Of a DNA stretch of 64,000 bases, positions 6,308 to 10,600 are shown piece by piece. The notes beneath the pieces were generated by a model. That model had not been told where the DNA came from, ran no database searches, and saw nothing but the letters and a program-made list of their open reading frames with translations. The position numbers and the translations under genes were made by a program. Each line of letters opens with the position of its first letter. Within the stretch, counting starts at the first letter, position 1. The DNA is from an uncultured Syntrophomonadaceae bacterium (lineage in GTDB: Bacteria > Bacillota > Dethiobacteria > DTU022), in the NCBI GenBank assembly GCA_964463285.1, contig CAYXBB010000003.1:1913-65912 (forward strand), written 5' to 3'.

Positions 6308-8152
6308 ATGAAATCTGGAAAGTTCAAATTAATTTTCGCCCTAAGCCTGGCCATGGCGCTGGCGCTAATGCCGATCAACCAATCGCTTGCGGTCGGTGAA
6401 AGCACTGCCGCCACCCGTGAGCAGGGGGCCGGAATCAGTAGCAAGGAGGAGGTTATCTACGCCACTCTTTCCCCGCAGGGCGATGTTTCAGCCATTTATG
6501 CAGTCAATCATTTTGCACTGGCCGGGGAAGGAAGTATCACCGACTACGGTAACTATGCCTCGGTAACCAATCTAACGGATACAACACCGCTGGTTCTTAA
6601 AGACGATGCCGTTGTCCTGGAGGCTGCCGGGGATAATTTTTATTATAAGGGCGATCTGCTCACAACCGATCTGCCGTGGTTATTTGATATATCCTATTTT
6701 CTGGGGGATGTTCAAAAAGAACCGGGAGAATTGGCCGGTGAATCGGGTGAGTTGTCAATCCAAATCCTGACAAAACAGAATGAATCTGTAAATACTGCTT
6801 TTTTTGATAATTATATGCTGCAAATTTCCCTGACGCTGGCTACTGAAAAATGCAGCAGCATTCAGGCGTCCGGCGCCACCATAGCCAATGCGGGCAAGAA
6901 CAAGGTAATCACCTATACGGTAATGCCGGGCCAGGAGGCAACGCTTTTTTTAAGGGCAACAGTTAAGGACTTTACAATGGGCGGCATTGATATTGCAGCG
7001 CTGCCCTTCTCAGTGGAAATGGCGTTACCGGATACGGGAGCCCTGGCCAATGATTTTACTAAACTTTCGGCAGCGATTGCCGATTTAGATCAGGGGATGG
7101 GCGAACTGGCCGGCGGCCTGGTCGGCTTAAAAGCCGGCGCCGCGGAGCTGGGCAACGGCTCAGCAGATCTAAAAAGTGGTCTTACCCGGTTAAACGAAAG
7201 CTCCGGACCGCTTGTTGAGGGCTCCTCCCAAATTGGTATTGCCCTAACCCGGTTTGCTACCGCCCTTAACGATTCACCCGGAGAGATGAACTTGAATGAT
7301 CTGGCCCGGCTTCCCCAGGGCCTCTCCGAGTTAGCTGCCGGATTGGATGAAATAGCGGGCAGCATGATCGAGCTAAAGAACGGCTTTACACCATCCTACC
7401 AGGCCTTGGACAGAGCCATGGCCGAAATTCCGGAGACGGTGCTCAATGAAGAGCAGCTTGGGGCGCTTTATGCCCAAATTGACCCCAGTCATCACCAAGT
7501 GCTGGATCAATTAGTAGCCTCCTATGAAACAGGTCAAAGAGTAAAGGGCACTTACAGTCAGGTAAAAGGGGCCTTTGATGGGGTGGACTCTGCCCTGAAT
7601 TTGTTGCCTGCCTCCATCAATACTATTTCATCTTCCCTCGAAGATCTATCGGCACAGATCGGCAAAGCCCTTTCCGGTGCAGATTCGCCACAACAACTGG
7701 ACCGGCTTGCGGAAACATTAGGGGAACTAAGCAGGAACTATGAGGCATTTCATAACGGGTTAAGGGAATACACGGAGGGTGTGGCCGTTATTTCTGCCGG
7801 TTACTCCGATTTCCACGATGGTTTTTCTACCATGGAGGAGGGCATCGGCAGGCTGGAGGAAGGTGCAACTGCGCTCTATGGAGGAACCAGTATGTTAAAC
7901 GGTAAAACAGCCAATATGCCGGACAGACTGGAGAGCGAAATCGGTAATATGTTGGAACAGTATACCGGGTTGAAATTTGCACCGATTTCCTTTACATCTT
8001 CCAAAAATAGAGATACAACATTGGTCCAATTTGTGTTGAAATGCGGCGGGATTGAAAAACCGGAAGAAGCAAAAACGTTGGAGGTAAAGACGGATGAAAA
8101 AACATTTTGGAGCAGGCTGGTCGCGCTTTTCACCGACAAGAAAAAAAGATAA
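6308..8152 (+). CDS. Secreted protein with X-X-X-Leu-X-X-Gly heptad repeats (YhgE/Pip-like ectodomain)
   Basis: A signal peptide (MKSGKFKLIFALSLAMALALMPINQSLAV) and repeated LxxG heptads (ELAGGLVGLKAGAAELGNGSADLKSGLTRL...). AAGGAGG ribosome-binding site. No C-terminal transmembrane segment. Confidence 0.6.
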   Translation: MKSGKFKLIFALSLAMALALMPINQSLAVGESTAATREQGAGISSKEEVIYATLSPQGDVSAIYAVNHFALAGEGSITDYGNYASVTNLTDTTPLVLKDDAVVLEAAGDNFYYKGDLLTTDLPWLFDISYFLGDVQKEPGELAGESGELSIQILTKQNESVNTAFFDNYMLQISLTLATEKCSSIQASGATIANAGKNKVITYTVMPGQEATLFLRATVKDFTMGGIDIAALPFSVEMALPDTGALANDFTKLSAAIADLDQGMGELAGGLVGLKAGAAELGNGSADLKSGLTRLNESSGPLVEGSSQIGIALTRFATALNDSPGEMNLNDLARLPQGLSELAAGLDEIAGSMIELKNGFTPSYQALDRAMAEIPETVLNEEQLGALYAQIDPSHHQVLDQLVASYETGQRVKGTYSQVKGAFDGVDSALNLLPASINTISSSLEDLSAQIGKALSGADSPQQLDRLAETLGELSRNYEAFHNGLREYTEGVAVISAGYSDFHDGFSTMEEGIGRLEEGATALYGGTSMLNGKTANMPDRLESEIGNMLEQYTGLKFAPISFTSSKNRDTTLVQFVLKCGGIEKPEEAKTLEVKTDEKTFWSRLVALFTDKKKR

Positions 8153-8335: not shown

Positions 8336-9133
8336 TCACCAATTTTGCCGGGCGCCCGCTTCAACTAATTCCAATTTATTTAAATGCCGCTTTTCAAAGA
8401 CGGCGGTTATCAAAGACGATGGATAGGCGGCACTAAGCTTACTTTCGCCGGTGGCATAATTGATATCGATTCCCGGCTGGACATTATACACGTAGACATG
8501 GAAACAGATGCCGGCCCCATCATCTTCAACCGAATAAGCCTCCATTTGAACCCCACTTGCAAGAAGGTTGTTCCCCTCAAATATTGGCGTAACCCGATAC
8601 ATAACATGATTGCCGGTCTCTTTTATATAATCGGCGACCATATTTTCAAAGGGGAGCATCCCTTGTACATTCAGATAGCGCGTTCCGGTAATTAAGTTTT
8701 TGGTATTGGCGTTCTCACCGGACAACTGATATCCGATTAAATGGCAGCGGTTATACAGGTATTTTCCTTCAACAATCTCATATTTCACCGTATGCCAACC
8801 GGAGGGCTTTACTTGCCCTATATTCCCCCGTTTGGCGGTAGGCATTAGATCCCTACCCACACAGGCCATGGCATATCCACATCTATGTAATGAATCTAAT
8901 TCACTGTAGAATTCGTAAGAAGTGGTAACCAGTTCGGAGTCGGAAAACCTGGGCCTGTTTTCATCTATCACAACATAGGAAGAGTCTGTAAAGGCCGGAA
9001 CTTCGGATAAAGCAATTGGCTCGCTCGGCTCGACCGTACTCGGTCCGGTTAAAATATCGATGCTAATACAACCGGTAAGAAGATTACATATAATTAATAC
9101 TACAAGCAGTACAATCGATAAATGTCTATTCAT
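8336..9133 (-). CDS. Secreted lipoprotein DNA/RNA non-specific endonuclease (beta-beta-alpha-Me, NucA/EndA-like)
   Basis: A lipobox signal (LLTGC) and the catalytic DRGH-type motif (NRCHLIGYQLSGENAN). It overlaps the upstream ORF by 8 nt (ATGAATAG). Confidence 0.8.
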   Translation of the reverse strand: MNRHLSIVLLVVLIICNLLTGCISIDILTGPSTVEPSEPIALSEVPAFTDSSYVVIDENRPRFSDSELVTTSYEFYSELDSLHRCGYAMACVGRDLMPTAKRGNIGQVKPSGWHTVKYEIVEGKYLYNRCHLIGYQLSGENANTKNLITGTRYLNVQGMLPFENMVADYIKETGNHVMYRVTPIFEGNNLLASGVQMEAYSVEDDGAGICFHVYVYNVQPGIDINYATGESKLSAAYPSSLITAVFEKRHLNKLELVEAGARQNW

Positions 9134-9539
9134 TCTTATATGTCTCTTTCGTTATTTTATCGTGAGAAAAGCCGGCAAAATCTTCGCTCGATACCAAGGT
9201 ATATTTACCTGCAGTTAAATCGATATCGAGCAGGAAGTCCGCTGGGTACTCCCTGTTCCAGCGATATACAATAATCATTGTAATTTCATGAATATATGGA
9301 GAAAGAGGGATGTTTTCAACAAAACAGAAATCATCCTCTCCGGCTATCTTCATAAAGTTGTCATCTATGAAGACGGGGCCAACACTGTTTTCAAATAATG
9401 GAGCGGAAAAACTATTAATAAACAATCGGTTCTTTCCTACTGTACAAACAAGATCATCAATAAGAAGCCGGTCCCGGCTTTGACGGCGATTGTTGAACAA
9501 CCTGCCGTTTTTATTATCCAAACACAGAAATACCTTCAT
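9126..9539 (-). CDS. Hypothetical cytoplasmic protein, translationally coupled to the nuclease; candidate nuclease inhibitor or immunity protein
   Basis: 137 aa with no signal peptide. GGGAAGG ribosome-binding site. It is the first gene of a two-gene operon with the nuclease. Confidence 0.5.
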   Translation of the reverse strand: MKVFLCLDNKNGRLFNNRRQSRDRLLIDDLVCTVGKNRLFINSFSAPLFENSVGPVFIDDNFMKIAGEDDFCFVENIPLSPYIHEITMIIVYRWNREYPADFLLDIDLTAGKYTLVSSEDFAGFSHDKITKETYKNE

Positions 9540-9633
9540 TTACATATACCTTCCCAAGATGCTTGCACATCTTTCTTATCGGCGGTTTGAATTAGCTTAT
9601 CATGTATTCCCTAAAATAAACAATTGGTGTTTT

Positions 9634-9658
9634 TTTACATTTTATGATATGCTATACT
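9634..9658 (+). promoter_or_regulatory. Candidate sigma-A promoter for mntA-hepT (TTTACA ... TGcTATACT extended -10)
   Basis: Sequence motifs only. The 13-nt spacer is short, but an extended -10 is present. Confidence 0.3.
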
Positions 9659-9735
9659 ATAGGCAAATAAATAATTTAAGCTCCATGAACACGACCCCTT
9701 TCCAAAAAACTGTTCAATTTGGGAGAAGGCATAAG

Positions 9736-10221
9736 ATGACCCGGTTAAGTAAAAAGAAAAACAAAATCAATATCGAGCCCCACATGGATAAGATAAAACA
9801 ATATTTTTTAGGCAGCACAGACATTGCTGCAGCTTTACTTTTTGGATCCTACGGCACTAAGTACCAAACTCCGCTTAGTGACGTGGATATGGCTATCTTA
9901 TTTCTGCCTGGACAAAAAATATCCCTTGATCGTGAACTAGTAATATTATCAGATTTAAGCATCATTACCGGAGAGGAAGATATTAATCTGGTAATCCTCA
10001 ACAAGGCGCCGCTAACATTGCAATTTGAGGTATTGCTAACCGGAAATGTGCTATTCAAAAAAGATCTCTGCCTGGAGGACTTTCATGAATATGTTTGTAA
10101 GCGCTATGCGGATTACAAAATAGACCTGGATCAATTCAATCGGGACTATGATTCGGCTTTACGGGGGGTGTACCTAAATGATCAACCAAGGAAAAATACG
10201 AGACAAAATCCAGGTTATTAA
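9736..10221 (+). CDS. mntA: MntA-type minimal nucleotidyltransferase, antitoxin of a type VII TA system
   Basis: GSxxxG...DxD nucleotidyltransferase motif (LFGSYGTKYQTPLSDVDMAI). The ATG at 9736 follows GGGAGAAGG. The annotated longer ORF from 9490 has no ribosome-binding site. Confidence 0.8.
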   Translation: MTRLSKKKNKINIEPHMDKIKQYFLGSTDIAAALLFGSYGTKYQTPLSDVDMAILFLPGQKISLDRELVILSDLSIITGEEDINLVILNKAPLTLQFEVLLTGNVLFKKDLCLEDFHEYVCKRYADYKIDLDQFNRDYDSALRGVYLNDQPRKNTRQNPGY

Positions 10222-10600
10222 AAACAACCTAGCCAAACTTGAAATGATCTATTCAAAAGGCTTGGATAATTTTTTAGAAAGCCCCTTTCTGGCCGATGCC
10301 GCTATACGTCTTTTGCAGGTGTCTATTGAAGCTATGCTAGACATTTCACACCATCTAATTTCTAGAAATCATTTAGGAACACCAAAATCCTATCGCGAAA
10401 CAATTGAATTGCTTACGCAAGCAGATATACTGCCTCAAGAAAAGCTGCCGATATTTACCATGATGGTTAAATTCCGAAATCGGGCTGTTCACATCTACGA
10501 TAAAATCGATAATAAAGAGGTTTTTAAAATAATCGAAAACCATCTTTACGACTTTAACGATTTTATAAAAGCAATTATTCGATTTTTTGAAAACACCTGA
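10178..10600 (+). CDS. hepT: HepT (DUF86, HEPN) RNase toxin
   Basis: HEPN Rx4HxY motif (RNRAVHIYD). It overlaps mntA by 44 nt. Confidence 0.8.
   Translation: MINQGKIRDKIQVIKNNLAKLEMIYSKGLDNFLESPFLADAAIRLLQVSIEAMLDISHHLISRNHLGTPKSYRETIELLTQADILPQEKLPIFTMMVKFRNRAVHIYDKIDNKEVFKIIENHLYDFNDFIKAIIRFFENT

What the first reader, a model, noticed from the sequence alone, without database searches (positions are those of the whole stretch)
8336..9539. Lipoprotein non-specific nuclease preceded by a translationally coupled cytoplasmic ORF: candidate nuclease-immunity pair
The NucA/EndA-like beta-beta-alpha-Me nuclease carries a lipobox and an NRCHL active-site motif. It is the second gene of a two-gene operon. 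The first gene (137 aa) has no signal peptide, and its stop overlaps the nuclease start by 8 nt. This arrangement resembles inhibitor/immunity partners of secreted nucleases such as NuiA for NucA, yet the 137-aa sequence matches no inhibitor family I recognise. The pair lies in an AT-rich island next to a toxin-antitoxin module, hinting at a defence, competition or DNA-scavenging role.
Basis: inference. Interest (0 to 1): 0.55.

Follow-up and report, generated by a model that had tools for sequence, protein, structure and literature searches.

The report
Exported nuclease with DHFR-fold partner
A surface-anchored DNA/RNA-cutting enzyme is made together with a small, unannotated cytoplasmic protein shaped like dihydrofolate reductase; this pairing recurs in hundreds of gut Clostridia and some of their phages, and the partner is most likely a built-in safety inhibitor of a new structural type, though this is unproven.

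Summary
On the minus strand, a 137-aa ORF (9126-9539) overlaps by 8 nt a 265-aa lipoprotein nuclease (8336-9133). The nuclease is an Endonuclea_NS_2 (EndA/Spd1-like) enzyme with its catalytic His/Asn/Glu intact.

The 137-aa protein matches nothing in Pfam, NCBIfam, PADLOC, PHROGs or PDB sequences. It belongs to a large family (2,355 clusters at 50% identity; at least 587 species genomes). A confident AlphaFold model (pLDDT 93) has a shortened DHFR fold without the NADPH-binding motifs.

Starting from the small protein, 84 of 85 loci have the nuclease next door, usually with an ATGA overlap. Starting from the nuclease, 79 of 80 metagenome loci carry the small gene upstream. No other neighbour recurs. 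Natural fusions exist, some without a signal peptide but with catalytic residues intact.

Best reading (about 0.5): a cytoplasmic antidote that holds the nuclease inactive before export, as NuiA or barstar do, but with a new fold.

Caveats:
- 56 of 80 phage-borne nuclease copies lack the partner.
- The partner's invariant polar residues look enzyme-like.
- Both proteins are acidic.
- The only co-fold I could run was uninformative.

The adjacent MntA/HepT module is real but incidental.

The parts
9126..9539 (-). ORF-A: a 137-aa cytoplasmic protein, member of an unannotated family with a shortened DHFR-like fold. Signature motifs are FNNRRQSRD (15-23), CFVEN (72-76), WNRxYPxD (94-101) and GxSHDKIT (123-130).
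   Evidence: ORF and translation. No Pfam, NCBIfam, PADLOC, PHROGs or PDB-sequence hit. Homologues: 253 and 2,355 representative clusters. AF2 pLDDT 93.3 and pTM 0.88. Foldseek hits are DHFRs only, TM 0.58-0.76. Invariant residues.
8336..9133 (-). 265-aa exported non-specific nuclease, a beta-beta-alpha-Me enzyme of the Endonuclea_NS_2 family (EndA/Spd1/Sda type).
   Evidence: PF13930 E=4e-25. PDB hits 5fgw, 2xgr and 3owv. phrog_36807 E=4e-47. Catalytic H131, N155 and E163 are invariant.
9068..9133 (-). Lipoprotein signal peptide of the nuclease (residues 1-22; lipobox L-T-G-C, with Cys22 encoded at 9068-9070).
   Evidence: Read directly from the translation. All 82 distinct partner nucleases have an N-terminal hydrophobic segment, and 60 of the 82 are followed by a lipobox-like Cys.
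8741..8752 (-). Codons for N128-R129-C130-H131, the active-site motif; H131 is the general base.
   Evidence: The reverse complement of 8741-8752 is AAC CGC TGC CAT. It aligns with Spd1 NRGH/His121, whose role was shown by mutagenesis (PMC3258162).
9126..9133 (-). 8-nt overlap (ATGAATAG) of the ORF-A stop with the nuclease start; a translational-coupling junction.
   Evidence: In other genomes the modal junction is a 4-nt ATGA overlap (56 of 83 loci).
9549..9555 (-). Shine-Dalgarno-like GGGAAGG, 9 nt upstream of the ORF-A ATG.
   Evidence: Read from the sequence. It supports the 137-aa start rather than the 99-aa variant held from NCBI (P0389).
9639..9666 (-). Weak candidate sigma-70-type promoter (TTGCCT-16-TAAAAT) in the 196-nt divergent intergenic region shared with mntA.
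   Evidence: Consensus scan only, 9/12 matches. The number of sites found equals the shuffle expectation, so this is a suggestion, not evidence.

Best explanation
A self-contained two-gene module. The downstream gene encodes an EndA/Spd1-type non-specific nuclease that is exported by the Sec/lipoprotein pathway and anchored on the cell surface, where it degrades extracellular DNA/RNA. Whether that serves scavenging, biofilm or NET-like matrix clearance, or DNA entry is not resolved.

The upstream, translationally coupled gene encodes a cytoplasmic protein of about 135 aa built on a cut-down DHFR scaffold that has lost cofactor binding.

Inferred mechanism: the partner is made first, in step with the nuclease. 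It binds any nuclease that folds in the cytoplasm before or instead of export, and blocks its active site with the conserved loop surface (R18/R19/S21/D23, E75, W94-D101, S125/H126). It is left behind when the nuclease is translocated. Functionally this makes it an antidote like NuiA for NucA or barstar for barnase.

Shown: gene anatomy, nuclease identity, export signals, partner fold, conservation of the pairing, and the fusions. Inferred: binding and inhibition.
For: 1. Pairing from the partner's side. In 84 of 85 loci from different species or assemblies, a nuclease homologue (E 1e-31 to 1e-105) sits adjacent on the same strand. The one exception ends 552 bp after ORF-A. In 56 of 83 loci the junction is a 4-nt ATGA overlap. 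One locus (L071) has the reverse order and is still overlapping.

2. Pairing from the nuclease's side. 79 of the 80 closest nuclease loci in metagenomes have ORF-A just upstream; the exception is truncated.

3. Nothing else recurs. Among 80 genome loci only these two genes are shared, and the next family occurs in 10 loci. The pair therefore moves as a unit, including into a complete Blautia phage genome.

4. Compartments. All 82 distinct partner nucleases carry an N-terminal signal or anchor (60 lipobox-like). ORF-A has none.

5. Rosetta-stone fusions. P0189 (394 aa, seen on 14 contigs in a housekeeping context) and P0269/P0270 fuse ORF-A to the nuclease without any signal peptide, yet keep NRCH, the metal-binding Asn and the Glu. 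A catalytically intact non-specific nuclease that stays in the cytoplasm is easiest to explain if the fused domain neutralises it.

6. ORF-A is not a working DHFR. Only the fold matches. There is no sequence relation (hhalign probability 0.1-0.3%; no DHFR_1 or RibD_C hit in 49 members). The glycine-rich NADPH loop position reads V-E-N, and about 20 residues of the adenosine-binding subdomain are missing (the mapping is inference).

7. Jumbo phages. Where ORF-A is not adjacent to a nuclease, the nuclease lies about 25 kb away on the same contig in 3 of 5 cases.

8. Precedent. Exported or secreted nucleases with dedicated cytoplasmic inhibitors are known (NucA/NuiA, barnase/barstar, NucA/Nin, EsaD/EsaG). 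EndA could not be cloned in active form, and no inhibitory protein was known for it as of 2010 (PMC3025545; PMC13522737).
Against: 1. The dependence is one-sided. In IMG/VR, only 24 of 80 nuclease loci have ORF-A within 2.5 kb. The 56 'solo' nucleases are exported, catalytically intact, up to 83% identical to partnered ones, and have no shared alternative partner. The nuclease is therefore tolerated without a partner in cis, unless the host supplies one in trans, which I could not test.

2. ORF-A has ten absolutely invariant residues in 153 sequences (G12, R19, S21, D23, E75, W94, Y98, P99, G123, H126). They sit at the C-terminal ends of the strands and in the loops equivalent to the DHFR active-site region. 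That pattern is more typical of a catalytic or ligand-binding site than of most protein inhibitors.

3. There is no global charge complementarity. ORF-A has median pI 5.15, and the nuclease core is also acidic at 4.5.

4. The nuclease clade has a near-invariant Cys pair (C85, and C130 next to the catalytic His). This could be an alternative safety device if it forms a disulfide only outside the cell, as in Serratia nuclease.

5. The only co-fold possible here was the natural fusion P0189 with an unpaired alignment. It gave pTM 0.50 and a poorly modelled nuclease core, so it offers no support.

6. In jumbo phages the unlinked ORF-A lies beside NrdD and HD phosphohydrolases, a nucleotide-metabolism setting.
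Confidence: 0.5

Rival explanations
1. ORF-A is a small-molecule-binding or catalytic protein. It would be a DHFR-derived pocket that binds a nucleotide or nucleobase-like ligand, or hydrolyses a phosphoester. Its function is tied to the nuclease, for example by processing or sensing nuclease products or by gating nuclease activity, rather than acting as a simple stoichiometric plug.
For: - The DHFR fold is a nucleotide/pterin-binding fold.
- Ten absolutely invariant residues (G12, R19, S21, D23, E75, W94, Y98, P99, G123, H126), mostly polar or aromatic, plus near-invariant R18, R96, D101 and S125 lie where DHFR has its active-site cleft and its M20, FG and GH loops (the mapping is inference).
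- S/T45 occupies the position of DHFR Thr46, a phosphate ligand (inference from secondary-structure register).
- The unlinked copies in jumbo phages sit next to NrdD and HD phosphohydrolases.
- Solo nucleases show that the nuclease does not need ORF-A.
Against: - ORF-A is cytoplasmic while the nuclease acts outside, so they share no compartment after export.
- No transporter or salvage gene is conserved with the pair.
- The NADPH motifs and the adenosine-binding subdomain are missing.
- There is no similarity to any enzyme family by sequence.
- Strict ATGA coupling, co-transfer as a pair and fusion to the nuclease are more typical of physical partners.
Confidence: 0.22
2. ORF-A is a dedicated pre-export chaperone or maturation factor. 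It would keep the nuclease export-competent or help it fold or insert, without inhibiting catalysis as such.
For: A cytoplasmic partner is co-translated with an exported protein. The dependence is one-sided: the partner always comes with the nuclease, while the nuclease is sometimes alone. That fits an accessory, non-essential helper.
Against: - Sec/lipoprotein substrates do not normally need private chaperones (established knowledge of the Sec pathway).
- The signal-less fusions (P0189, P0269, P0270) cannot be export intermediates.
- A rigid, highly conserved DHFR-like domain with invariant charged residues is unlike known holdases.
Confidence: 0.1
3. The pairing has no protein-level meaning. 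ORF-A would be an unrelated conserved gene, or merely a leader ORF whose translation drives nuclease expression.
For: The overlapping stop/start means the nuclease's translation may depend on upstream translation.
Against: - A mere leader would not keep a 135-aa fold at pLDDT 93 with ten invariant residues across 153 pairs.
- It would not be fused in frame to the nuclease in several lineages.
- It would not stay in the same phage genome when unlinked.
Confidence: 0.05

Closest known systems
NucA-NuiA of Anabaena sp. PCC 7120 (secreted beta-beta-alpha-Me nuclease plus cytoplasmic inhibitor)
   Same: A non-specific, exported beta-beta-alpha-Me nuclease of the same superfamily is accompanied by a small cytoplasmic protein of about 135 aa. 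That protein is thought to protect the producer before export. Experiments show that expressing the inhibitor first, upstream, matters (PMC13522737).
   Different: NucA belongs to the Endonuclease_NS (PF01223) branch. NuiA is a different family (PF07924) that no ORF-A member matches, and ORF-A's fold is DHFR-like. Inhibition is proven for NuiA and not for ORF-A.
Barnase-barstar (Bacillus amyloliquefaciens)
   Same: A secreted nuclease with an intracellular stoichiometric inhibitor, needed for safe expression.
   Different: It is an RNase of an unrelated fold. Barstar is an 89-aa acidic protein that complements a basic enzyme. Here both proteins are acidic and the partner has a DHFR fold.
EsaD-EsaG (S. 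aureus), YeeF-YezG (B. subtilis) and RhsA-RhsI (Dickeya): Endonuclea_NS_2 toxins with immunity proteins
   Same: The same nuclease Pfam family, PF13930, with a cognate neutralising protein encoded next to it (PMC9990079; PMC3482391).
   Different: - Those nucleases are C-terminal toxin domains delivered by T7SS, LXG or Rhs into competitors.
- Their immunity genes (DUF600/Imm36, SUKH, NTF2) lie downstream and often occur in orphan arrays.
- Here the nuclease has only a lipoprotein or Sec signal, the partner is upstream and single-copy, and it belongs to none of those families.
EndA (S. pneumoniae), Spd1 and Sda (S. pyogenes)
   Same: They are the closest solved relatives of the nuclease. They share the catalytic His/Asn/Glu and are membrane-anchored or secreted.
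   Different: The EndA paper stated in 2010 that no inhibitory protein was known for it (PMC3025545). They have DRGH/NRGH rather than NRCH, and lack the C85/C130 pair.
Dihydrofolate reductase / RibD_C fold superfamily
   Same: The three-dimensional fold and strand order are the same (Foldseek TM 0.58-0.76, probability 1.00, more than 300 DHFR hits).
   Different: Identity is 5-13% and there is no profile-level similarity. ORF-A is about 22 residues shorter. The glycine-rich cofactor loop is replaced by V-E-N, and the GR(H/K)T phosphate loop by N-S-F-S (the mapping is inference).

Membership tests
Endonuclea_NS_2 (EndA/Spd1-type beta-beta-alpha-Me non-specific nuclease): the 265-aa protein | Pfam PF13930 match above the gathering score | tested here: met
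   88.9 bits against a cut-off of 27, E=4e-25, covering residues 74-200.
Endonuclea_NS_2 (EndA/Spd1-type beta-beta-alpha-Me non-specific nuclease): the 265-aa protein | Catalytic general-base His in the (D/N)R(G/C)H motif, a metal-ligand Asn and a water-positioning Glu | tested here: met
   H131, N155 and E163 align with Spd1 H121, N145 and E164 (roles from PMC3258162). Each is invariant in 153/153 sequences.
Bacterial lipoprotein: the 265-aa protein | Signal peptide ending in a lipobox [LVI][ASTVI][GAS]C | tested here: met
   MNRHLSIVLLVVLIICNLL-TG-C22. 60 of 82 homologues have a lipobox-like Cys. Actual lipidation cannot be tested here.
Dihydrofolate reductase (DHFR_1) / RibD_C: the 137-aa protein | DHFR three-dimensional fold | tested here: met
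   The AF2 model has pLDDT 93.3. All 50 listed PDB matches (of 313 at E<=0.001) and nearly all named BFVD matches are DHFRs, TM 0.58-0.76 in the PDB list.
Dihydrofolate reductase (DHFR_1) / RibD_C: the 137-aa protein | Sequence-profile membership (PF00186 or PF01872) | tested here: not met
   None of 49 family members hits either model, even at E<=10. hhalign probability is 0.09-0.29%. The family profile finds nothing among PDB sequences.
Dihydrofolate reductase (DHFR_1) / RibD_C: the 137-aa protein | NADPH-binding elements: the glycine-rich loop after strand E (GGG in E. coli), the G-R-x-T loop before helix C, and the strand C / adenosine-binding loop | tested here: not met
   The family consensus has C-F-V-E-N after strand E and N-S-F-S before helix C. 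One strand and about 20 residues are missing between helix C and the next strand. The residue mapping rests on secondary-structure order and a non-significant global hhalign, so it is inference.
Ribonuclease Z (the name given to three homologues in NCBI MAG records) | Metallo-beta-lactamase fold with an HxHxDH motif, about 300 aa | tested here: not met
   ORF-A is 137 aa, has no HxHxDH, has a DHFR fold, and hits no Pfam or NCBIfam RNase Z or Lactamase_B model. The name is unsupported.
Known nuclease inhibitor or immunity families (NuiA, Barstar, DUF600/Imm36/EsaG, ComJ/Nin, colicin Im, SUKH, Imm-NTF2) | Sequence membership in the family model | tested here: not met
   A whole-Pfam scan of 49 members at E<=10 returns none of them. 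PADLOC and PHROGs also return nothing.
Exported nuclease plus cytoplasmic inhibitor pair (functional class) | The partner gene is conserved next to the nuclease gene and is cytoplasmic, while the nuclease is exported | tested here: met
   84/85 and 79/80 loci. Signal peptides occur on the nucleases only.
Exported nuclease plus cytoplasmic inhibitor pair (functional class) | The partner binds the nuclease and blocks its activity | tested here: inconclusive
   Co-folding the natural fusion gave pTM 0.50 with a poorly modelled nuclease core. Coevolution analysis was uninformative. A multimer prediction or biochemistry is needed.
Exported nuclease plus cytoplasmic inhibitor pair (functional class) | The nuclease is not maintained without the partner | tested here: not met
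   56 of 80 nuclease loci on IMG/VR contigs have no ORF-A within 2.5 kb, although their catalytic residues are intact. Supply in trans from the host was not testable.
Polymorphic toxin / immunity system | Toxin domain at the C-terminus of a delivery protein (LXG, Rhs, CdiA and similar); immunity gene downstream, often in arrays | tested here: not met
   The nuclease has only a signal peptide or anchor before the catalytic domain. The partner is upstream and single, and no arrays are seen in 80 loci.
Type VII toxin-antitoxin MntA/HepT (neighbouring genes 9736-10600) | NCBIfam equivalog models above their cut-offs, and adjacent overlapping genes | tested here: met
   MntA scores 75.2 bits (cut-off 60) and HepT 122.9 bits (cut-off 60). 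The genes overlap by 44 nt. It is not linked to the nuclease pair elsewhere: 0 of 80 loci.

The most novel reading that the evidence does not exclude
ORF-A is not a passive plug. It is a DHFR-derived ligand sensor, with a pocket lined by D8/D23/E75, W94/Y98/F15 and R18/R19/R96 that is suited to a guanine- or pterin-like nucleotide. It holds the nuclease inactive until the ligand binds or disappears. In the signal-less fusions (the P0189 and P0269 lineages) this would make a cytoplasmic, ligand-gated non-specific nuclease, that is, a new kind of suicide or defence effector. Phages would carry unlinked copies beside their nucleotide-metabolism genes to control or counter it.
Probability: 0.1. 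Interest if true: 0.8.

Novelty: new variant of a known kind. Interest (0 to 1): 0.58.

Why it matters
Secreted EndA/Spd1-type nucleases matter for DNA uptake, biofilm turnover and escape from neutrophil traps. They are notoriously hard to clone because they kill the host, and the EndA paper stated in 2010 that no protein inhibitor was known for it (PMC3025545).

If the DHFR-fold partner is an inhibitor, it would:
- be a new structural class of nuclease inhibitor, showing an enzyme scaffold recruited as an antidote;
- give an immediate tool for expressing these nucleases and a template for inhibitor design;
- assign a function to a family of more than 2,000 sequence clusters that is abundant in human and animal gut Clostridia and their phages. 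This family currently has no Pfam or NCBIfam model and is mislabelled 'ribonuclease Z' in some records.

If it is instead a ligand-binding regulator, it would be more unusual still. Either way the pair is a clean, cheap experimental target: two small genes, with a toxicity-rescue assay in E. coli.

Tried and rejected
- **Co-fold.** Concatenated sequences are not accepted by the predictor, so I used the natural fusion P0189 with an unpaired alignment of fusions, partners and nucleases (A2). The result was pTM 0.50 with the nuclease core below pLDDT 50, which is uninformative.
- **Inter-protein coevolution.** MI with APC on 153 unique pairs (Neff 97) put the top pairs in gappy linker columns. 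I rejected these as artefacts.
- **Defence and phage libraries.** PADLOC had no hit for either protein. PHROGs had none for ORF-A and only function-unknown families for the nuclease.
- **Literature.** Searches for a DHFR-like nuclease inhibitor or immunity protein and for Clostridial lipoprotein nucleases found nothing relevant.
- **Island or TA linkage.** Rejected, because MntA/HepT is never next to the pair elsewhere.
- **The 'ribonuclease Z' name.** Rejected.
- **A second, non-homologous partner family upstream of solo phage nucleases.** None is shared beyond near-identical phages.
- **Charge complementarity.** Absent.
Full report
**1. What is in the window**

Two minus-strand ORFs occupy the stated coordinates. 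ORF-A is 9126-9539 (137 aa) and the second ORF is 8336-9133 (265 aa). They share eight bases, ATGAATAG, which hold the start of the second gene and the stop of the first. A GGGAAGG Shine-Dalgarno sequence lies 9 nt before the ORF-A ATG.

The 265-aa protein is an Endonuclea_NS_2 nuclease (PF13930, E=4e-25, 88.9 bits against a cut-off of 27). Its nearest solved relatives are streptodornase D, Spd1 and EndA. Residues H131, N155 and E163 align with Spd1 H121, N145 and E164, which mutagenesis showed to be essential (PMC3258162).

Its N-terminus (MNRHLSIVLLVVLIICNLL-TG-C22) is a lipoprotein signal peptide. ORF-A has no hydrophobic N-terminal segment.

The divergent neighbours at 9736-10221 and 10178-10600 are an MntA/HepT type VII toxin-antitoxin pair, both above NCBIfam cut-offs. 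The four-gene block is 39.6% GC against 47.9% for the window, in the lowest 2% of equal-sized windows. The flanking genes are ordinary: TetR, MMPL, an ABC ATPase, a CobW-type GTPase and a solute-binding protein. The window contains no tRNA genes.

**2. What ORF-A is**

It matches no model in Pfam, NCBIfam, PADLOC or PHROGs and no PDB sequence, either alone or as a family profile. It is nevertheless a member of a large family:
- 253 close homologues of 131-141 aa;
- 2,355 representative clusters at E<=1e-3 among 1.84 billion representatives;
- relatives in at least 587 species genomes. The 80 best loci fetched are nearly all named as Clostridia, including Oscillibacter valericigenes, Emergencia timonensis, Clostridium hominis and Sporofaciens musculi; two are labelled only 'uncultured bacterium'.

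A few NCBI MAG records call it 'ribonuclease Z'. No NCBIfam model backs that name, and the protein has none of the defining features.

With a 49-sequence alignment, AlphaFold2 gives a confident model (pLDDT 93.3, pTM 0.88). Foldseek finds essentially only dihydrofolate reductases, both in the PDB (313 hits at E<=0.001; the 50 listed are all DHFRs, TM 0.58-0.76, 5-13% identity) and among viral models.

At the sequence level there is no relation to DHFR:
- hhalign probability is 0.09-0.29%;
- none of 49 members hits DHFR_1 or RibD_C.

By the order of secondary-structure elements, ORF-A lacks one strand and about 20 residues of the adenosine-binding subdomain. It reads C-F-V-E-N where DHFR has its glycine-rich NADPH loop, and N-S-F-S where DHFR has G-R-x-T (the mapping is inference). 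It is therefore a DHFR-fold protein that is very unlikely to be a reductase.

Ten residues are absolutely invariant in 153 sequences: G12, R19, S21, D23, E75, W94, Y98, P99, G123 and H126. Several more are nearly so: R18, F15, C72, R96, D101 and S125. They lie at the C-terminal ends of the strands and in the loops that correspond to the DHFR active-site region (inference).

**3. Is the pairing real?**

Starting from ORF-A:
- Three look-ups in unrelated contigs all showed an Endonuclea_NS_2 gene immediately downstream, with different flanks.
- In 85 loci, 84 have a nuclease homologue (E 1e-31 to 1e-105) adjacent on the same strand. The one exception ends 552 bp after ORF-A.
- The modal junction is a 4-nt ATGA overlap, in 56 of 83 loci.
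- One locus (L071) has the reverse order and still overlaps.

Starting from the nuclease, 79 of the 80 closest loci in metagenomes have ORF-A just upstream, and the exception is truncated.

Clustering all flanking ORFs in 80 genome loci shows that only these two genes recur. MntA/HepT occurs in none of them.

All 82 distinct partner nucleases have an N-terminal signal peptide or anchor, 60 of them with a lipobox-like Cys.

The pair also occurs, with an 8-nt overlap and a lipoprotein signal, inside the early region of a complete Blautia phage genome.

**4. Fusions**

Several natural proteins join ORF-A to the nuclease.
- P0271, P0324 and P0338 are read-through fusions. They keep the signal peptide as an internal hydrophobic segment.
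- P0189, P0269 and P0270 have no signal peptide at all, yet they keep the NRCH motif, the metal-binding Asn and the Glu, as well as all ORF-A signature motifs.
- P0189 was seen on 14 contigs in a housekeeping context (dnaG-rpoD-trmK), so it is a real gene.

A catalytically intact non-specific nuclease confined to the cytoplasm is easiest to understand if the fused domain keeps it silent.

**5. The complication**

Scanning IMG/VR with a nuclease alignment gave 80 loci, of which only 24 have ORF-A within 2.5 kb. The 56 solo nucleases:
- are exported;
- have all catalytic residues and the clade-specific Cys pair;
- are up to 83% identical to partnered nucleases;
- share no alternative upstream partner.

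Conversely, five large phage contigs (92-346 kb) carry an ORF-A with no nuclease within 5 kb. There it lies beside an anaerobic ribonucleotide reductase and HD phosphohydrolases. In three of those five contigs the nuclease is about 25 kb away.

The dependence is therefore one-sided. In the loci sampled, every ORF-A with sequence available downstream has a nuclease next to it, or, in at least three of the five jumbo-phage contigs, elsewhere on the same contig. The nuclease, by contrast, can be maintained without ORF-A in cis, at least on (pro)phage DNA. Whether the host supplies ORF-A in trans could not be tested.

**6. Other tests**

- ORF-A evolves faster than the nuclease overall (mean pairwise identity 46% against 63%) but keeps its invariant core.
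- Both proteins are acidic (median pI 5.15 and 4.5), so there is no barstar-like global charge complementarity.
- Mutual-information analysis of 153 pairs gave only alignment artefacts.
- The single co-fold I could run (P0189 with an unpaired alignment) gave pTM 0.50 and a badly modelled nuclease core, so it says nothing.
- No paper in the library describes a DHFR-like nuclease inhibitor or this gene pair.
- The EndA paper states that no inhibitory protein was known for it as of 2010 (PMC3025545).
- The catalogued immunity partners of NucA-type toxins are Imm36/DUF600, SUKH and NTF2 (PMC3482391).

**7. Interpretation**

The best-supported reading (about 0.5) is a cytoplasmic antidote. ORF-A is made first and in step with the nuclease, and it binds and silences any nuclease that folds before export. 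This is the logic of NuiA and barstar, carried out by a DHFR scaffold that has lost its cofactor site.

For it:
- the near-absolute dependence of ORF-A on the nuclease;
- the ATGA coupling and the upstream position;
- the cytoplasm-versus-export split;
- mobility of the two genes as a unit;
- the signal-less fusions.

Against it:
- the solo phage nucleases;
- the enzyme-like invariant residues;
- the lack of charge complementarity;
- the possible disulfide safety device (C85/C130);
- the absence of any direct evidence of binding.

The main rival (about 0.22) is that ORF-A binds a small ligand or is catalytic, with a function tied to the nuclease. A private export chaperone (about 0.1) and a meaningless association (about 0.05) are less likely.

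A competition, immunity or defence-island reading is not supported. There is no delivery domain, there are no immunity arrays, and the TA neighbour is incidental.

**8. Verdict**

The kind of system (an exported nuclease with a dedicated cytoplasmic partner) is known. The partner family and its fold are new and unannotated, and its function is unproven. I therefore rate it a new variant of a known kind, of moderate to good interest (0.58).

Noticed in passing
window 9736-10221 (+) and 10178-10600 (+): A complete MntA (nucleotidyltransferase antitoxin) / HepT (HEPN RNase toxin) type VII toxin-antitoxin pair. The genes overlap by 44 nt and are divergent from the nuclease operon. It is never adjacent to the pair in 80 other genomes.
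   Followed up: yes
window 8336-9133 (-), residues C85 and C130: The nuclease clade has a near-invariant cysteine pair (151/153 and 147/153). One of the two replaces the Gly of the usual DRGH/NRGH motif, right next to the catalytic His. It could be a disulfide or metal site that makes activity depend on export; EndA and Spd1 lack it.
   Followed up: partly
P0189, P0269, P0270 (loci L086-L089); P0271, P0324, P0338: Natural single-chain fusions of the DHFR-fold partner with the nuclease. One set has no signal peptide and is predicted to be cytoplasmic. The other set has the signal peptide retained as an internal segment. The gene downstream of P0269 has a weak HEPN_Apea hit.
   Followed up: partly
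L189, L190, L193 (IMGVR_UViG_3300029615_000411, _3300029428_000172, _3300023499_000220), ORF-A at about 4983-5423 of L189: Contigs of 143-346 kb labelled viral carry the partner gene unlinked from the nuclease (about 25 kb apart). It sits beside an anaerobic ribonucleotide reductase (NrdD), an HD_4 phosphohydrolase and a 459-aa protein with a C-terminal HD domain, whose N-terminal half has an ADP-ribosyltransferase-like look (from my reading of the sequence only).
   Followed up: partly
L205-L275 (IMG/VR contigs): 56 of 80 (pro)phage-borne nucleases of the same clade have no partner gene within 2.5 kb. Several lie near what look, from their sequences, like serine-recombinase or integrase genes (not tested), as if they were prophage cargo. 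Whether the host chromosome supplies the partner is unknown.
   Followed up: partly
P0008, P0030, P0042 (NCBI MAG records); P0389: Some public records name the 134-aa partner 'ribonuclease Z', which nothing supports. A 99-aa sequence from NCBI (P0389, longest contig 73,233 bp) falls in the same 90% cluster as the window's ORF-A. It looks like a truncated start call, whereas the alignment and the Shine-Dalgarno sequence support 137 aa.
   Followed up: yes
C-termini of many partner nucleases (e.g. P0269 residues 389-433; L170 5413-6402): Many homologous nucleases end in a 'sunset' domain of about 42 aa (NF051437; listed as PF27542 'ArfC' in precomputed hits). The window's nuclease lacks it and instead has an unrelated 30-aa tail.
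   Followed up: partly
L071 948-2392: One genome (Candidatus Ornithomonoglobus MAG) has the gene order reversed (nuclease first, then the partner), still with a 4-nt overlap.
   Followed up: no
window 6308-8152 (+): A 614-aa protein downstream of an MMPL transporter and a TetR regulator has no significant Pfam hit. It has a signal-peptide-like start and long coiled, Ala/Gly/Leu-rich repeats. It was not examined further.
   Followed up: no
L006 5908-6264 (-) and equivalents in 51 of 80 loci: A 'conserved' antisense ORF overlapping the partner gene appears in clustering. It is a shadow of the conserved coding sequence, not a gene.
   Followed up: yes
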